Assembly (NCBI GenBank): GCA_043739785.1
Contig: JAYUDN010000001.1
Coordinates: forward strand, 37,392 to 101,391
From: Candidatus Altimarinota bacterium
Lineage (GTDB): Bacteria; Patescibacteriota; Gracilibacteria; BD1-5; UBA2023
Reading direction: 5' to 3'
DNA: 64,000 bases
A program made the position numbers and the translations under genes. Below the pieces are notes generated by a model. The model made no database searches, was not told the origin of the DNA, and worked only from the letters and a program-made list of their open reading frames with translations. Numbering within the stretch: the first letter of the stretch is position 1; each line of letters opens with the position of its first letter. Of the stretch, positions 12,352 through 56,700 are shown one piece after another.

Positions 12352-13485
12352 ATGTCCTACGATCAGTTTGCTACCACATTCTCGAAGAGTCGGAAACACC
12401 ATCCTTGGCCAGAATTGGACGCTATTATTTCCGATATCCAATCCGAGGGATATATGAGGGTGCTTGATGTCGGGTGCGGTAACGGAAGGCTCCTCGAAGA
12501 GTGGTTCAAAAGAAGCGAAGCAAAACAAGGTTTGAATTGAGAACAAGAAAACCCCCCGTCGAAGGGGGGCAGGGGGATACGGGGTTGGTATGCTAACTCG
12601 AATCAAGCTATTCCGTATGATAGAAAACTCCTGGAAAAAGCGAAAGAAAATAGAAAATCTGGAAATCCAGTAGAAAATGCTTTTTGGTTTACTATTCTGA
12701 AATCTGAATCTCTTAAAAAATATAAGTTTACTCGACAGAAGCCACTTCTGACTTATGTAGTTGATTTTTATTGTTCCGAACTCTGATTGATTATCGAGCT
12801 CGATGGGGACTCTCATACTACTCAGATTTTATATGATCAAAAAAGAACCGAGGAACTAGAAAAGTACTGACTTTTTATCCTCAGATTTTCGAATCAAGAT
12901 GTGATGTTGCGGCCAGAGTGAGTATTAGAGAATCTACTTGAATGCATTCGACAGAGAGAAAGTTACCCCCCTCCCCCCCTTGGAAGGGGGGTATCACACC
13001 CATATACTTGAAATTGAAAAGAAGCTTTAGATATTACATATCTCTGAATCGATAATTCAGTCGGGATGATTAATGAAGCTAGAAAATGCCATCCTGGATA
13101 TGATTTCCGAGTTATTGAAATGGCTCAACTTGAAAACTTGAAAACTTGAAAACTTGAAAACTATGACGCTATAGTCTTGTTGGCATCTTTCCATCACCTC
13201 GAAACCGAAGCAGAGCGACTGACCGTATTGTCATCGCTTCGGAAAATGCTTTCACCACACGGACGAATCTATATGACGAACTGGAACCTGCTCGGGCAGC
13301 CTCGATATGAAAAAAGTCACCGAGGAAATGGCGACTTCGATATCAAGATCGGGGAATACATTCGATACTACCATAGTTTCCAGATCGAAGAGCTCCAGAC
13401 ACTTTTCGAAAAATCTGGATTCAGTATTCGAGAACATAGAATATTTGAAGGAGGAAAAAATATTTTCTCTATCGTAGGATTATAG
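12352..13485 (+). CDS. Class I SAM-dependent methyltransferase carrying an in-frame DUF559 endonuclease cassette
   Basis: Motif I VLDVGCGNGRLL lies upstream and LGIDNSVGMINEARK plus LLASFHHL downstream. One uninterrupted code-25 frame covers 377 codons. 12253..12540 and 13177..13485 are in the same frame (924 nt apart). Confidence 0.7.
12541..12995 (+). mobile_element. DUF559 (Vsr-like endonuclease fold) cassette with GC-rich hairpin ends, inserted in frame
   Basis: IPYDRKLLEKAKENRK...AFW..L......YKFTRQKPLLTYVVDFYCSEL(G)LIIELDGDSH...YDQKRTEELEKY(G)LFILRFSNQDV. Flanked by cccccc-gtcgaa-gggggg (12552..12569) and cccccc-ttggaa-gggggg (12974..12991). Confidence 0.7.
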
Positions 13486-27734: not shown

Positions 27735-28187
27735 GTATTAGTTTATTAGTTTATTAGTTTATTAGAGCATGAGAGCACTGGTGAACGGATGTACCGGACA
27801 AGAACTTTTTTACAGTTTTCGAAACTTCAAGAGTAGATTCTCGTTTTCTCGGGAATGACAGTAGTAAAATTCCCCTTTCAACCTGCTAACTCCCAGAATC
27901 TACTTTTCTCCGTCTCCGTCGCTTCCACCCCTCCTTTTTTACCCCCTAGTCCCCCTTGGAAGGGGGATTCGGAATCCCCTTATTCGTCGTCCAAAGCCTT
28001 TCCACTTTCCGACTTTCTAACCAGCCAATCAGCTTACCGACTCCTTTCCCCATCCCAGCTTACCTGCACCTAGCTATCTCCTCTTCCTCGTCTATTTCGT
28101 CTCTATAGTTTCTACCCTTCACTCCTTCCACCAACCAGCATACCAGCTAATCAGCCAATCTACCTCACTTCTAATCCCCCCTTTATT
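27735..28187. repeat. Intergenic mosaic repeat array A
   Basis: gtttatta x3 (27741..27764); GC hairpin accccctagtcccccttggaagggggattcggaatcccc (27941..27979); reverse-orientation word tracts (ccagccaatcagcttacc, tctaccc). Confidence 0.8.
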
Positions 28188-34289: not shown

Positions 34290-34560
34290 AGAGGGGGAGG
34301 GGTTAAGAATTAGCTGGTTAGCAGGTTTGTTGGGAGGTTGGGATGGGAGAAGGGTAGAGACGGTAGAAACGATCGAACGGTAGAGACGGGGGGCTGGTTT
34401 GCTGATTAGCTGGGAAGGAGAGAAGCTGGTTGGTGGGGAGAGGAGTTTCCATCCCCCTTCCAAGGGGGGCAGGGGGTAAAAAAAGAAGAGTAGAAAAGTA
34501 AAGAGAGAAACCTTATAGTACGGTCATTCCCGTGAAAACGGGAATCTAAATGAAACTTCA
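34290..34560. repeat. Intergenic mosaic repeat array B
   Basis: gctggt/ggtagag words, GC hairpin tccatcccccttccaaggggggcagggggt (34447..34480) and gtcattcccgtgaaaacgggaatc (34523..34546). Confidence 0.8.
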
Positions 34561-36685: not shown

Positions 36686-37480
36686 AAAGTTAGAATAGGA
36701 GGTAGCTGGTAAGCTGGGATGGGAGAAAAAGGGAGAAGAGTGGAAAAGGAGAAAGCTGATTCGCTGGTAAGAAAGTTGGAAAGGAAAAATAGTAGGATAA
36801 CTCGAGAGGAGGAATGGGTAAGATGATGCAAGGGTAAAAGAAAAAAAACGAGTTTTTGTCATTCCGACCGAAACGACCATAGGAAGTGAAGTGGAGGAAT
36901 CCCTTTTCACATTAAGAAGATAAAATCATACTGAAACCAAGGGATCCCTCGATTCCGGCTATCTCCTCCACTCGGGATGACAACGGTGAGAGAAGAGTAG
37001 AAGAGCGTAAAAGTAGAAGAGTAGAAGAGCGAATGGGGGTCTCTATCCCCCTTCCAAGGGGGACAAGGGGGTAGGGTATAAGGAAGTTTGGTGTCATTCC
37101 GACCGAAGTGACAGAGGGGAAAGCGCCACGAGAATTCCATTGTTACTTTGTCATTCCCGTGAAAACGGGAATCCAGCAAATAAGAAACTGGATCCCCGCA
37201 TGCGCGAGGATGACAACCAAAAGAAGTAGAAAAGAGGAAAGGGAGAGAACTTAGAAACGATGGGAAGGTGGATGAGAGTTTTTTGAATCCCCCTTCCAAG
37301 AGGGACTAAGGGGAGTAGGGTATAAGGAAGTAAAAAAGGAGAAGAGTAGAAAAGTAGAATTGGATAAAGTAAGAACAGCAAGAGCCAAACACGGGAAAAC
37401 CCGAGCACTCCAACTCTCGGAGAGATGATCACATTGAAAAGAGAGAAGAAAGTCATATAATACGCCACTCATACACATCT
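36686..37480. repeat. Intergenic mosaic repeat array C (about 0.8 kb, largest in the window)
   Basis: Modules: M3 36858..36903, M5 36941..36982, GC hairpins 37031..37086 and 37280..37330, M3 37093..37138, M1-M2 composite 37150..37215, plus gtagaag and gctggt word tracts. Confidence 0.85.
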
Positions 37481-37730
37481 ATACCCCTCGCTTCCCCTAC
37501 GAAATATCCACTCCCAGATTATAAAACAACCCAATACTTAACCGTCAATACCTCTTTATTTGCTATCGTGTTTTGATATATGGTATACTGACCGTGTATC
37601 TTCAATATCAAAACATATGTTCTCGTCCTCACTCGGTTTCAATAAAAGTTCTCTCCTTGTCGTCAGTACTCGTGAAGAACTCAATATTATTTTTACCGGA
37701 GCCCGCATCAAGTATAACTCCATTCGACAA

Positions 37731-43275: not shown

Positions 43276-43838
43276 TGAAAAGTGAAGAATGAATAACGAA
43301 GAATAGAGGGGAAATTACGAAATACGAATGAAGAATTAGTAGCAAAAAATGAAGAATATGAGCCCTTCGTCATTCTGAGGTCGCCCCTTTGCGAAGCATT
43401 GGAAGTACCCTTGGGGTACGAAGAATCCAGATTCCGAAAGACCGAACTTCTTCAGGACTATCCTGATCGGTGTACGGGAGTGAAAAATTGTTGTCATTCC
43501 CGTGAAAACGGGAATCCACTTCTCTTTACCCCCTTAGTCCCCCTTGGAAGGGGGATTCAAAATCCTCATTCGCTTTTCTTTTGTTGTCATCTCGAGTGGA
43601 GGCGATAGCCGGAATCGAGAGATCCCTTTGCTTCAGTATGATTTCAATCCCTTGAAGTGGAATAAGGGATTCCTCCGCTTCACTTCCAGCGGTCGTTTCG
43701 GTCGGAATGACAAAAAAATCAGTTCTACTCGTCTACCATCTTCTACCACACTCTACCATCTTCTACCACACTCTACCATCGTCTACCCAACCAGCACACT
43801 AGCAAACCAGCCAACCAGTTATTTCCTAACCTTCCCCT
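43276..43838. repeat. Intergenic mosaic repeat array D
   Basis: M6 43367..43429, M1 43493..43517, GC hairpin 43527..43565, M5 (reverse) 43586..43625, M3 (reverse) 43666..43711, and CTACC phased every 10 nt at 43733..43783. Confidence 0.85.
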
Positions 43839-44681: not shown

Positions 44682-45030
44682 GGAGGTAGAAACGAGGGAA
44701 AGATAGAGACGGAAAAAGGCCGGTAAGCTGGTTTGCTGGTTAGAGGGTTGGAAAATTGGAAAGTGGATGAGTGGAAAAGGTAGAATAAATGAGCTTTTGT
44801 CATCCCGACCGAAATGGAACAAGTTGGAGTGTAATAGAGAAACCCCATTTCTATTTTGTCATTCCCGTGAAAACGGGAATCCAGCAAACAAGAATCTGGA
44901 TCCCCGCATACGCGAGGATGACAAACAAAGGAAGTGGCAGAAGTCTAGAAAGATAGAAAAAATTAGAATATATAACAAGAAAAAACTGAAAAATTTGCCA
45001 AATAAAAATAAATAGAGTATGATTAGTAGG
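44682..45030. repeat. Intergenic mosaic repeat array E
   Basis: ggtagaa/gctggt words, an M3 variant at 44799..44845 and the M1-M2 composite at 44858..44923. Confidence 0.8.
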
Positions 45031-45049
45031 TAATTCACCTTTGTTAGAT

Positions 45050-54603: not shown

Positions 54604-54607
54604 AAAC

Positions 54608-54892
54608 ATGAATATCTCCACAGAATTTCTCTACACGATCAGTAATCTCTACCTCTATCACGTCGGAAGTGTTGGAGTGGCTATTGCTATTATTATCGTA
54701 TGTATTCTTTTTGTGGTGGTATGTCATTTTGCATTTGTCTTTACTTATGGGGATCTCCTCCTTCGAAAAGAGGCACAACTCCTCGAACATAAGAAATCCG
54801 TCCTGCAAGAACTGATCCTGATGAAGGATATCCAGACCGAGATCGAAAAAGAGATCGAAAAAGCCATGCTGAATCAGACGTTTAGTGGGTAG
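54608..54892 (+). CDS. Small membrane protein (94 aa)
   Basis: A TM helix VGVAIAIIIVCILFVVVCHFAFVF followed by a charged coiled-coil-like tail. Confidence 0.45.
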   Translation: MNISTEFLYTISNLYLYHVGSVGVAIAIIIVCILFVVVCHFAFVFTYGDLLLRKEAQLLEHKKSVLQELILMKDIQTEIEKEIEKAMLNQTFSG

Positions 54893-55520
54893 GAAGCAGG
54901 TAGATCTTGGTAGATAACAGGTAGAAACGGCAGTAGGTAGAAAGCGAGGAAAATAAGATGAGAAAAGGCTGGTATGCCGTTAGGCTGGTAAGCTGGTATG
55001 GGAGAAACGAATGGAAAAAGGAATAGTAGAGAGATGATAGCAGATAGAATATGGGAAAATGGTAGAAACGGTAGAAGAGGAGAAAAGTAGAAAAGGGAGG
55101 AACGATAGGATTGGTAAAAAATGGATGGGATTTTTTGAATCCCCCTTTCAAGGGCGACTAAGAGGGTAACGGTTCGGAAAGACGATGGGGAGGTAGAAAT
55201 GATGGAATGGTAGAAAAGGTAGAAGCGAAAGAAGTATTTTTTGCGTTATTCCGACCTTAGTGGAATAAAGTAAAATCAAGAGAAGGAATCGTATCCTCAT
55301 TTCGTCATTCCCGTGAAAACGGGAATCCAGCAAATAAGGAACTGGATCCCCGCATACGCGAGGATGACAAAGAGACGAAGGAATGCCTCTCCCGAGTCCT
55401 ATGGATCGGCATGACACAGTATTGTCATTCCGACCGAAACGACCAGAGGAAGTGAAGTGGAGAAATCCCTTTTATTCTCATCCGTCTTGTTCGATAGTTT
55501 TTATCGATTTTCCTTCTATT
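54893..55520. repeat. Intergenic mosaic repeat array G
   Basis: GGTAG at 54888, 54899, 54909, 54920 and 54936; GC hairpin 55141..55182; M1-M2 composite 55304..55369; M3 55424..55468. Confidence 0.85.
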
Positions 55521-56447: not shown

Positions 56448-56700
56448 AGGGGACGAGAGTTCGAGAGTATAAGAGTTTTACAGTTTAAGAGGAGAAGGGC
56501 GCGGAAGCTTGGAAGCTAGTTAGCCGGTAAGCTGGGACGGTAGAAATGATGGGATGGAGGCGGTAGAAACGGCAGAAACGATTTCTGTGTCATTCCGACC
56601 GAAGCGGAGGAATCTCTTTTCTCGTTTTGTCATTCCCTTGAAAACGGGAAGCCAGAAAACGATGGGATGGTAGAGGAGCTAGACATGGGAAAATGTAGGC
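56448..56700. repeat. Intergenic mosaic repeat array H
   Basis: gctggt/ggtagaa words, M3 at 56589..56614 and an M1 variant at 56629..56655. Confidence 0.8.

What the first reader, a model, noticed from the sequence alone, without database searches (positions are those of the whole stretch)
37150..37215. A 66-nt double-hairpin composite present three times nearly identically
gtcattcccgtgaaaacgggaatccagcaaa(t/c)aag(a/g)a(a/t)ctggatccccgcat(g/a)cgcgaggatgaca occurs at 37150..37215, 44858..44923 and 55304..55369. All three are on the plus strand, regardless of the orientation of neighbouring genes. Each half is a hairpin with a GTCAT-CC / GGAT-CC type base. Single halves occur at 34523, 43493 and 56629. 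The near-identity suggests recent spread or strong constraint, as for a small RNA or a protein-binding site.
Basis: seen in the sequence. Interest (0 to 1): 0.6.

Follow-up and report, generated by a model that had tools for sequence, protein, structure and literature searches.

The report
Ssn nuclease hairpin pair, gene-less cassette
The 66-base double hairpin is an inverted pair of the DNA hairpins that a small single-strand-cutting nuclease (Ssn, described in 2025) recognises, so it is a new example, in an uncultured Gracilibacteria genome, of a known repeat system and not a small RNA gene.

Summary
The composite stands at 37150, 44858 and 55304 (+), with 0 matches expected by chance. It is not specific to the plus strand: the genome holds about 34-36 copies of half A and 18 of half B on both strands, including 13 A-spacer-B doublets.

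Half A (TGTCATTCCCGTGAAAACGGGAATCCAG) is a near-match to the Neisseria NTS. Half A, and half B read on the opposite strand, both fit the published "Ssn-related motif" (SRM) of Chenal et al. 2025. B is a diverged inverted copy of A.

On contig C14 the same A and B ends bracket a 96-aa GIY-YIG gene of the Ssn type. The composite therefore has the ends of that cassette without the gene.

The exact 25-nt A occurs in more than 120 loci from many phyla. About half of those have an inverted partner within 130 nt. Stems covary across variants.

Old copies shared with a congeneric genome carry uncompensated stem mutations. One block that holds a composite is absent from that genome.

I found no Rfam match and no SRM-flanked RAYT gene.

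Verdict: a new member of a known kind. Whether Ssn itself spreads the doublets remains open.

The parts
37149..37176 (+). Composite 1, left half A: SRM/NTS-like hairpin TGTCAT-TCCCGT-GAAA-ACGGGA-ATCCAG
   Evidence: Matches the published SRM pattern. It differs from the NTS consensus CGTCATTCCCGCGMAVGCGGGAATCYRG at 3 positions: the first base, and a compensated C-G to T-A change of one stem pair.
37177..37187 (.). Composite 1 spacer (CAAATAAGAAA), the variable A-rich part between CCAG and CTGG
   Evidence: Across the 13 doublets the spacer is 7-15 nt between CCAG and CTGG and is not conserved, while the hairpins are.
37188..37215 (-). Composite 1, right half B: an SRM read on the minus strand (TGTCATCCTCGCGCATGCGGGGATCCAG), a diverged inverted copy of A
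   Evidence: Matches the SRM pattern on the minus strand. It shares 20 of 27 bases with the reverse complement of A (read from the sequence).
44857..44923 (+). Composite 2 (A 44857-44884, spacer, B 44896-44923), between tlyA and a pilin-like gene
   Evidence: At this site G001 carries a different (GACC-type) hairpin pair with the same right boundary.
55303..55369 (+). Composite 3 (A 55303-55330, spacer, B 55342-55369), downstream of a sortase gene
   Evidence: An orthologous but decayed copy exists in G001 at C54:23816-23881.
34523..34547 (+). Solo half A (1 mismatch)
43493..43517 (+). Solo half A (exact), followed by a CCCCC/GGGGG hairpin
56629..56653 (+). Half A with a broken stem (2 mismatches); remnant of a doublet whose right half has decayed
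27835..27859 (-).
36857..36982 (+). A second kind of GTCAT-anchored inverted pair in the same mosaic (TGTCATTCCGACC...GGAGGAATCCC, spacer, GGGATCCC...GGGATGACA)
   Evidence: It has the same anchors and a different stem. No cognate nuclease gene was found next to this type in this assembly.

Best explanation
The 66-nt unit is an inverted pair of Ssn-related motifs (SRM, the NTS/dRS3 type of hairpin). Half A lies on the plus strand. Half B, a diverged version, lies on the minus strand. A short variable spacer separates them.

The unit has the same two ends as a 368-bp cassette elsewhere in this genome (contig C14:30006-30373). Those ends bracket a 96-aa single-domain GIY-YIG gene of the Ssn type. 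The composite is therefore the gene-less, miniature form of an SRM-ssn-SRM cassette.

By analogy with the characterised enzymes, I infer the following; it was not shown here:
- When either strand is single-stranded (replication, repair, DNA uptake), each hairpin folds.
- The Ssn protein binds it through the stem, the 5' GTC and the C after the stem.
- The protein nicks the single strand a few bases 5' of the motif. For a pair, that is just outside the unit on each strand.

The doublets and solo halves behave as proliferating and decaying intergenic repeats, organised in mosaics like the Neisseria NIMEs. Whether Ssn itself copies or moves them is not known; I put this at about 40%.
For: Motif:
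- A and B (minus strand) both match the published SRM pattern. The genome has 41 matches against a mean of 4.75 in 20 dinucleotide shuffles (pattern).
- A differs from the NTS consensus at the first base and by one compensated stem pair.
- The positions the paper found critical are kept: GTC before the stem and C after it.

Cassette:
- At C14, A lies upstream and B downstream of an intact 96-aa GIY-YIG ORF.
- Two further ssn-type genes (C28, C24) are bracketed by other GTCAT hairpins. A YhbQ-like GIY-YIG gene (C6) has none.

Protein:
- P0001 is 60% identical (E 8e-39) to an SRM-flanked 90-aa GIY-YIG of a Rickettsia endosymbiont.
- tblastn of the three ssn-type proteins (P0001-P0003) gave 50-62% identity, E 1e-29 to 1e-35, to genes next to the exact Neisseria-type NTS.
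- Its three closest relatives checked (67-70% identity) are all bracketed by inverted SRMs.
- The spacing of its catalytic Tyr-Tyr-Glu (9, 20, 67) equals that of the mutated residues Y6, Y17, E64 of SsnA.

Generality:
- Exact A occurs in more than 120 loci of many phyla. 67 of 130 occurrences have an inverted GTCAT hairpin partner within 130 nt.
- A-ssn-A' cassettes exist in relatives G016 and G019.

Structure:
- Over 150 GTCAT...ATCY 26-mers, 83% of cells pair against 68% in shuffles. There are 161 double-sided changes against 55, with 0 of 500 shuffles reaching this. Slid controls give 25-44%.

Dynamics:
- A is present in only 6 of 41 related genomes.
- The block holding composite 1 (about 36696-37252) is absent at the orthologous site of G001.
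- Old orthologous copies share uncompensated stem mutations.
Against: - No enzymology was done. Binding and cutting by P0001 are inferred from homologues.
- I could not compare P0001 directly with N. meningitidis SsnA. The one Neisseria genome reached (N. lactamica NS19) has only a YhbQ-like small GIY-YIG without NTS flanks, and no P0001-type gene.
- The spacers of the doublets do not clearly match the inner ends of the C14 cassette, apart from the A-run before TGG. Descent by internal deletion is therefore not shown. The pairs could instead be the primary unit, or sites into which the gene entered.
- The difference at site 1 between G000 and G001 is a multi-module block of about 520-560 nt with ambiguous edges, not a clean 66-nt insertion.
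- One relative (G015) has A copies but no ssn hit.
Confidence: 0.82

Rival explanations
1. The pair is a REPIN-like doublet of REP elements, mobilised by a REP-associated tyrosine transposase (RAYT, Y1 HUH family).
For: The architecture (two inverted hairpins with a conserved 5' tail and a short spacer) resembles REPINs and BIMEs. The genome does encode three Y1_Tnp proteins.
Against: All three Y1_Tnp genes look like IS200 copies. They have their own, different end hairpins and no GTCAT motif within 350 nt. GIY-YIG genes are the ones bracketed by these hairpins, in this genome and in every other genome examined.
Confidence: 0.04
2. The unit is a small structured RNA, or a cis-acting RNA element in the untranslated regions of neighbouring genes.
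For: As RNA it folds into a long hairpin of -31.6 kcal/mol, z -6.2. The three window copies are co-oriented with most neighbouring genes.
Against: - No Rfam family matches and no tRNA-like call is made.
- Genome-wide the copies are on both strands.
- The spacer, which would be the apical loop, is free to vary, and flanking promoter or terminator signals are not conserved.
- Old copies lose pairing without compensation.
- The same hairpins flank nuclease genes across phyla.
- SsnA does not bind RNA.
- Expression could not be checked.
Confidence: 0.05
3. The hairpins are chiefly landing sites for other recombinases, as dRS3 is for the Nf filamentous phage transposase in Neisseria. They may also be substrates for recombination that swaps neighbouring modules. 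Under this reading Ssn is only a passenger.
For: dRS3 is an integration site for neisserial filamentous phages (PMC1797815). At site 2 a different hairpin pair occupies the same position in G001, with a shared right boundary. The mosaics differ by whole blocks.
Against: No integrase, IS110-type gene or phage was seen next to the copies examined. The tight, phylum-wide linkage is to the GIY-YIG gene. This reading is compatible with Ssn binding and does not replace it.
Confidence: 0.06
4. The unit is a double-stranded DNA operator for a regulator, or a bidirectional transcription terminator.
For: It is intergenic and palindromic. One terminator-like call overlaps half B on the minus strand.
Against: Terminator-like calls in the region are no more frequent than in shuffles (2 against 1.5). 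No T-run follows A on the plus strand. Copies sit upstream, downstream and in the middle of 0.4-0.9 kb spacers, with no fixed relation to genes.
Confidence: 0.03

Closest known systems
NTS / Ssn-related motifs (SRM) with the GIY-YIG single-strand nuclease Ssn (Chenal et al., Nat Commun 2025, PMC11893778)
   Same: - Oriented hairpin with a 5' (H)GTCAT tail, an ATTCCC...GGGAAT-type stem and a 3' C.
- Hundreds of phylogenetically scattered hosts.
- A single-domain nuclease gene of about 95 aa bracketed by inverted motifs (SRM-ssn-SRM).
- Intergenic location.
   Different: - The host is a Gracilibacteria (CPR) genome that reads TGA as glycine, including the Gly of the YIG motif. The paper does not mention Patescibacteria or Gracilibacteria.
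- The copy number is small (tens, not hundreds).
- The right-hand motif B is a distinct variant with a mismatched stem.
- The paper does not discuss gene-less inverted pairs as a unit (no 'MITE', 'REPIN' or 'doublet' in its text).
- No role in transformation can be assumed here.
Neisserial intergenic mosaic elements (NIME: dRS3-RS-dRS3 units; PMC1797815)
   Same: - Inverted 20-bp dRS3-type hairpins flank short variable 'RS' segments (19-214 bp).
- They are clustered in dynamic intergenic arrays that differ between related genomes.
   Different: - The spacer here is at the short extreme (about 11-18 nt between the 25-26-nt halves).
- The arrays also contain unrelated modules: C5/G5 hairpins linked to DUF559 genes, and 7-8-nt word tracts.
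- The phylum and genome size are different.
REP / BIME / REPIN elements with RAYT transposases
   Same: - Short hairpins with a conserved 5' tetranucleotide-like tail.
- They occur singly and as inverted doublets.
- The dedicated nuclease gene is itself flanked by the repeats and acts on single-stranded hairpins.
   Different: - The associated enzyme is a GIY-YIG nuclease, not an HUH Y1 transposase.
- The Y1 genes of this genome are not linked to these hairpins.
- No strand-transfer activity is known for Ssn.
MITEs (miniature inverted-repeat transposable elements)
   Same: A gene-less unit has the same two ends as a gene-carrying parent. It has multiple copies and a patchy distribution.
   Different: - No target-site duplication was seen.
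- The 'inverted repeat' arms are only 20 of 27 identical to each other.
- No transposase in the usual sense is present.

Membership tests
Ssn-related motif (SRM/NTS) repeats | Sequence fits the published degenerate pattern HGTCWYN(0-2)YYVSBRHN(0-5)WNVSBRGN(0-2)RNCYNB and is enriched over shuffled genomes | tested here: met
   A (+) and B (-) of all three composites match. The genome has 41 matches against a mean of 4.75 in 20 dinucleotide shuffles (pattern).
Ssn-related motif (SRM/NTS) repeats | Oriented hairpin: conserved non-palindromic 5' GTC and a C directly after the palindrome (the positions critical for cutting and binding) | tested here: met
   The stem ATTCCCGT/ACGGGAAT with a GAAA loop is preceded by GTC and followed by C. 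B has the same on the minus strand. Stem covariation across variants is shown.
Ssn-related motif (SRM/NTS) repeats | A gene for a single-domain GIY-YIG protein of about 95 aa (Ssn, cd10448) in the same genome, flanked by the motifs | tested here: met
   C14:30040-30327 encodes 96 aa (PF01541) and is flanked by A and B. C28 and C24 are flanked by other GTCAT hairpins. Assignment to cd10448 itself could not be run because no CDD library was available.
Ssn nuclease family | Homology to N. meningitidis SsnA (the paper's criterion is E < 1e-10) | tested here: inconclusive
   The SsnA sequence was not to hand. Indirect evidence:
- E 8e-39 to an SRM-flanked Rickettsia-endosymbiont protein.
- E 1e-29 to 1e-35 to genes next to the exact NTS.
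- The Tyr-Tyr-Glu spacing equals Y6/Y17/E64.
- N. lactamica NS19 gave no P0001-type gene.
Ssn nuclease family | Site-specific cleavage of single-stranded DNA a few bases 5' of the motif; no activity on dsDNA or RNA | not testable with these tools
   This needs purified protein and labelled oligonucleotides.
NIME-like mosaic | Arrays of inverted dRS3-type hairpins separated by short variable segments, varying between related genomes | tested here: met
   Mosaics at 36686-37560, 44682-45040 and 54604-55480. Block differences from G001 are shown.
REP/RAYT (REPIN) | A Y1 (HUH) transposase gene flanked by the repeats | tested here: not met
   Three Y1_Tnp genes are present, but none has a GTCAT hairpin within 350 nt. 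They carry IS200-like ends.
MITE | Terminal inverted repeats shared with an autonomous element, plus a target-site duplication | tested here: inconclusive
   The ends are shared with the C14 cassette. No direct duplication is seen at the flanks. The flanks show only partial inverted symmetry (TTTTGTCAT...ATGACAAAA or CTGTGTCAT...ATGACACAG).
Known RNA families (Rfam 15) | Covariance-model match | tested here: not met
   Nothing at gathering score in the window except two tRNAs. Nothing on the composite at E<=1.

The most novel reading that the evidence does not exclude
The inverted SRM pair is the non-autonomous miniature of a very small autonomous mobile element: two hairpin ends plus one 96-aa GIY-YIG gene, 368 bp in all. 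Its only enzyme, Ssn, would nick each strand just outside the unit on single-stranded DNA and so drive copying or homing of both the cassette and the gene-less pairs. That would make Ssn cassettes a mechanistically new class of prokaryotic mobile DNA, spread across most bacterial phyla, including bacteria with a reassigned stop codon.
Probability: 0.35. Interest if true: 0.7.

Novelty: new member of a known kind. Interest (0 to 1): 0.33.

Why it matters
The result shows that a striking 'double hairpin' in a CPR genome is ordinary in kind. It belongs to the Ssn/SRM system published in 2025, so it should not be pursued as a new RNA gene.

It adds modest points:
- The system is resident in Gracilibacteria. 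Its gene is adapted to the TGA=Gly code, down to the catalytic YIG motif.
- The gene-less inverted pair, with the same ends as a gene-carrying cassette, is a common form of these repeats across phyla.
- Within one genus, individual copies both decay neutrally and appear at new sites.

These points bear on the question the 2025 paper left open: whether SRM-ssn-SRM is, or was, a mobile element, and whether the nuclease spreads its own hairpins.

Tried and rejected
- **Strand bias and replication.** I tested whether the strand of half A follows GC skew. It does not (7/9 against 6/12, p = 0.73), and the skew in this genome is weak.
- **RAYT/REPIN.** Y1 transposases exist but are IS200-like with unrelated ends.
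- **RNA families and tRNA-like elements.** None were found.
- **Terminator role.** Terminator-like calls are not enriched.
- **Direct homology to Neisseria SsnA.** I tried this through N. lactamica NS19. That genome has only a YhbQ-like GIY-YIG without NTS flanks, so the test said nothing.
- **Clean empty site.** I looked for an empty site for the 66-nt unit in the congeneric genome. The differences are multi-module blocks or swapped hairpin pairs, with no precise 66-nt indel.
- **Generic scan.** A scan for 'GTCAY plus a perfect stem' gave little beyond half A itself (63 hits against about 20 in shuffles).
- **NCBIfam and PDB.** Sequence searches gave no informative name for the protein. The only hits were a weak group I intron endonuclease match and UPF0213 entry 1ZG2 at E 1e-3.

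Full report
**1. The observation**

The 66-nt degenerate pattern occurs exactly three times in the window, at 37150-37215, 44858-44923 and 55304-55369, all on the plus strand. None of 100 dinucleotide-preserving shuffles gave a match (sequences). The three copies differ at five positions, all in the spacer or in the loop of the second hairpin.

Half A (GTCATTCCCGTGAAAACGGGAATCC) occurs seven times in the window at up to 3 mismatches. Half B occurs only inside the three composites.

All three composites are intergenic:
- between yidC and a peptidoglycan-binding protein gene;
- between tlyA and a pilin-like gene;
- downstream of a sortase gene.

They lie inside 0.4-0.9 kb spacers built from several kinds of short repeat.

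**2. The genome**

The window is C1:37392-101391 of a 1.38-Mb assembly of 50 contigs. Earlier notes of this scan call it a Gracilibacteria genome that reads TGA as glycine. I confirmed this in two ways. Genes are intact only under table 25. The same-genus genome G001 shares a contig length with a record titled Candidatus Gracilibacteria (L018, 49,173 bp).

**3. Genome-wide picture**

At up to 4 mismatches there are 36 copies of A and 18 of B, on both strands. Thirteen loci hold A, a gap of 11-18 nt, then B. One locus holds A, 318 nt, then B. The plus-strand bias is therefore local. The strand of A shows no relation to GC skew (p = 0.73).

In the alignment of the 13 doublets the two hairpins are nearly invariant. 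The spacer and the flanks beyond TTTGTCAT / ATGACA are not. Copies that lie near each other share spacers and some flank: the three in the window, and the three on C25. This points to local duplication of larger mosaic pieces.

**4. What the halves are**

B is a diverged inverted copy of A. The reverse complement of A and B agree at 20 of 27 positions (read from the sequence). The composite is thus TGTCAT-hairpin-CCAG, spacer, CTGG-hairpin-ATGACA.

A list of all GTCAT(T)CC sites shows a wider set of elements with the same anchors, GTCAT-TCC ... GGA-ATC, and quite different, self-complementary interiors.

Two of these sites were immediately followed by ORFs starting M..YFVYIL / M..YYVYM, typical of small GIY-YIG nucleases. 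A Pfam search of the genome found four small GIY-YIG genes and one longer GIY-YIG-domain ORF that I did not characterise. Three of the four small genes are bracketed by an upstream forward hairpin and a downstream inverted hairpin of this kind.

On contig C14 the upstream hairpin is exactly A and the downstream one is B (one loop difference). The 368-bp unit A-gene-B therefore has the same ends as the 66-nt composite.

**5. The literature**

A text search led to Chenal et al. 2025 (PMC11893778).
- They define the Neisseria Transformation Sequence, CGTCATTCCCGCGMAVGCGGGAATCYRG. This is an oriented extension of the dRS3 repeat.
- They define a degenerate 'Ssn-related motif' (SRM).
- They show that these motifs flank homologues of a 94-aa GIY-YIG protein, SsnA, in many phyla.
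- They show that SsnA, two other Neisseria homologues and the Wolbachia homologue bind the hairpin only as single-stranded DNA. The enzymes cut a few bases upstream, and SsnA showed no activity on duplex DNA or RNA.
- They note that NTS-ssnA-NTS looks like an insertion sequence, and leave the question open.

The paper does not mention Patescibacteria or Gracilibacteria. It does not use the words MITE, REPIN or doublet.

**6. Membership tests**

Motif. Both A and B (on the minus strand) fit the published SRM pattern. The genome has 41 matches against a mean of 4.75 in 20 shuffles. The positions found critical in the paper are present: GTC before the stem for cutting, and the C after the stem for binding.

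Protein. The C14 protein (P0001, 96 aa) has three TGA codons read as Gly, one of them the Gly of the YIG motif. The gene is therefore at home in this code.
- Its relatives number in the thousands, at 60-70% identity, across Omnitrophota, Kapabacteria, Patescibacteria and others.
- The three closest relatives I looked up are each bracketed by inverted SRMs.
- P0001 is 60% identical (E 8e-39) to an SRM-bracketed 90-aa protein of a Rickettsia endosymbiont.
- tblastn of the three ssn-type proteins (P0001-P0003) gave 50-62% identity to genes next to the exact Neisseria-type NTS in other bacteria.
- In the Gracilibacteria relative G016 an ssn homologue is flanked on both sides by the exact Neisseria core GTCATTCCCGCGCAGGCGGGAATCC.
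- The catalytic Tyr, Tyr and Glu of P0001 (9, 20, 67) have the same spacing as the residues mutated in SsnA (Y6, Y17, E64). The YhbQ-like proteins do not.

Gap. I could not compare P0001 with SsnA itself. The only Neisseria genome I reached (N. lactamica NS19) has just a YhbQ-like small GIY-YIG without NTS flanks. That test says nothing either way.

**7. Structure and covariation**

As single-stranded DNA either strand of the composite folds into a cloverleaf: a short outer stem from the TGTCAT/ATGACA ends, and three hairpins. The energies are -17.2 and -18.1 kcal/mol, z about -5. As RNA it folds into one long hairpin.

I collected every 26-mer with the anchors HGTCAT and ATCY at the spacing of A, from this genome and from all loci fetched. 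Of the 231 distinct sequences, 100 have all six free stem pairs complementary, with 21 different arms.

On a random 150 of them:

| Measure | Observed | Shuffles |
|---|---|---|
| Cells that pair | 83% | 68% |
| Double-sided changes | 161 | 55 |
| Covariation score | 0.369 | 0.150 |

None of 500 shuffles reached the observed values, and slid controls paired at 25-44%. The hairpin is therefore under constraint across the family.

Within this genome the picture differs. Degenerate copies carry stem changes that are not compensated.

**8. Distribution and dynamics**

The exact 25-nt A is found in more than 120 stretches from Chloroflexota, Desulfobacterota, Nitrospirota, Bacteroidota, Patescibacteria, Planctomycetota, Rickettsia and others. 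In 67 of 130 occurrences an inverted GTCAT hairpin partner lies within 130 nt, usually with a different stem. The gene-less inverted pair is thus a general form of these repeats.

Among 41 related genomes, A is present in only six: own 32 copies, same-genus G001 14, G019 18, G016 8. Ssn homologues are present in 18. A-ssn-A' cassettes occur in G016 and G019.

Comparison with G001 gives four results:
- The block of about 520-560 nt that holds composite 1 is missing at the orthologous site between yidC and the next gene.
- Composite 3 is orthologous but decayed in G001, mainly through C-to-T changes that weaken the stems.
- The 'single half' at 56629 is a doublet whose right half has decayed.
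- At site 2, G001 has a different (GACC-type) hairpin pair ending at the same right boundary.

Two old doublets on C1:130801-131152 are orthologous in G001. One of them carries the same stem mutation there (TTCTCATG). Individual copies are therefore not kept intact by selection. Seventeen copies of A in this genome are identical to the consensus. This mixture of young identical copies and old decaying ones is what a proliferating repeat family looks like.

**9. Rivals**

- A RAYT/REPIN system is not supported. The three Y1 transposase genes are IS200-like and have other end hairpins.
- A small RNA is not supported, for several reasons. There is no Rfam match. Copies lie on both strands. The would-be apical loop varies freely. 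Stem decay is uncompensated.
- Terminator-like calls are at the level of shuffles.
- A role as landing or recombination sites, as for dRS3 and the Nf phages (PMC1797815), is compatible with the data and does not exclude Ssn binding.

**10. Mechanism: shown and inferred**

Shown here:
- the motif identity;
- the shared ends with a gene-carrying cassette;
- the homology of the gene to SRM-flanked GIY-YIG genes;
- the hairpin constraint across the family;
- the patchy and changing distribution.

Inferred from the published enzymes:
- the hairpins form on single-stranded DNA;
- they are bound by the resident Ssn;
- they are nicked a few bases 5' of GTCAT, which for an inverted pair means one nick on each strand just outside the unit.

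Open: whether these nicks lead to copying or movement of the pair and the cassette (my estimate is about 35-40%), and what, if anything, the host gains.

**11. Earlier notes of this scan**

Notes on other genomes reach the same identification. Several raise the same open question about mobility. I read them after reaching my conclusion, and they are not independent evidence.

**12. Verdict**

The element is a new member, in a code-25 Gracilibacteria genome, of the Ssn/SRM hairpin system. It is organised like a minimal NIME unit. It is not a small RNA.

Noticed in passing
window 12553-12990 (gene about 12600-12960, +); solo hairpins at 27951, 34453, 37047, 37289, 43539, 55141, 58076: A DUF559 (PF04480) endonuclease gene is bracketed by C5-6/G5-6 hairpins (CCCCCTTSNAAGGGGG). 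Seven more solo copies of that hairpin sit in the same intergenic mosaics as the Ssn hairpins (18 strand-matches against 0.18 expected). Two other DUF559 genes (C14:24073, C2:90752) have similar flanks. This is a second nuclease-plus-hairpin pairing in one small genome.
   Followed up: partly
window 36857-36982; also 37092, 44798, 55423, 56588: A GACC-type family (TGTCATTCCGACC...GGAGGAATCCC, often paired with GGGATCCC...GGGATGACA) has the same GTCAT/ATC anchors as SRMs. No nuclease gene lies next to any copy in this assembly.
   Followed up: partly
window 44798-44935 versus G001:C54:12838-13012 (L146): At the orthologous site the congeneric genome carries a GACC-type hairpin pair. This genome has a decayed GACC left half followed by the A-B pair. 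The right boundary ATGACA|AACAAAGGA is shared, as if hairpin pairs are exchanged at a fixed site.
   Followed up: partly
L001:241-528 (-) = G000 C14:30040-30327: The glycine of the catalytic YIG motif of the Ssn-type protein is encoded by TGA. So are two further glycines, so the cassette is adapted to the reassigned code and is not a recent import from a standard-code bacterium.
   Followed up: yes
L126 (G016:C1:311655-314918): In a Gracilibacteria relative an ssn homologue is flanked on both sides by the exact core of the Neisseria NTS (GTCATTCCCGCGCAGGCGGGAATCC).
   Followed up: no
G000 C48:1668-2027, C30:2983-3309, C15:4538-4891 (outside the window): Three IS200-like Y1 transposase genes have their own end hairpins. 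Two are closely related copies, and one sits at a contig end.
   Followed up: partly
window 36686-37560, 44682-45040, 54604-55480: The spacers are strongly purine-rich on the plus strand. They are filled with 7-8-nt word tracts (GCTGGTWA, GGTAGAA) between the hairpin modules. Block boundaries between the two congeneric genomes fall inside these tracts.
   Followed up: no
L004:237-488 (G000 C6:21086-21337): A fourth small GIY-YIG gene is of the YhbQ/UPF0213 type and has no flanking hairpins. This makes it an internal contrast to the three hairpin-bracketed Ssn-type genes.
   Followed up: yes
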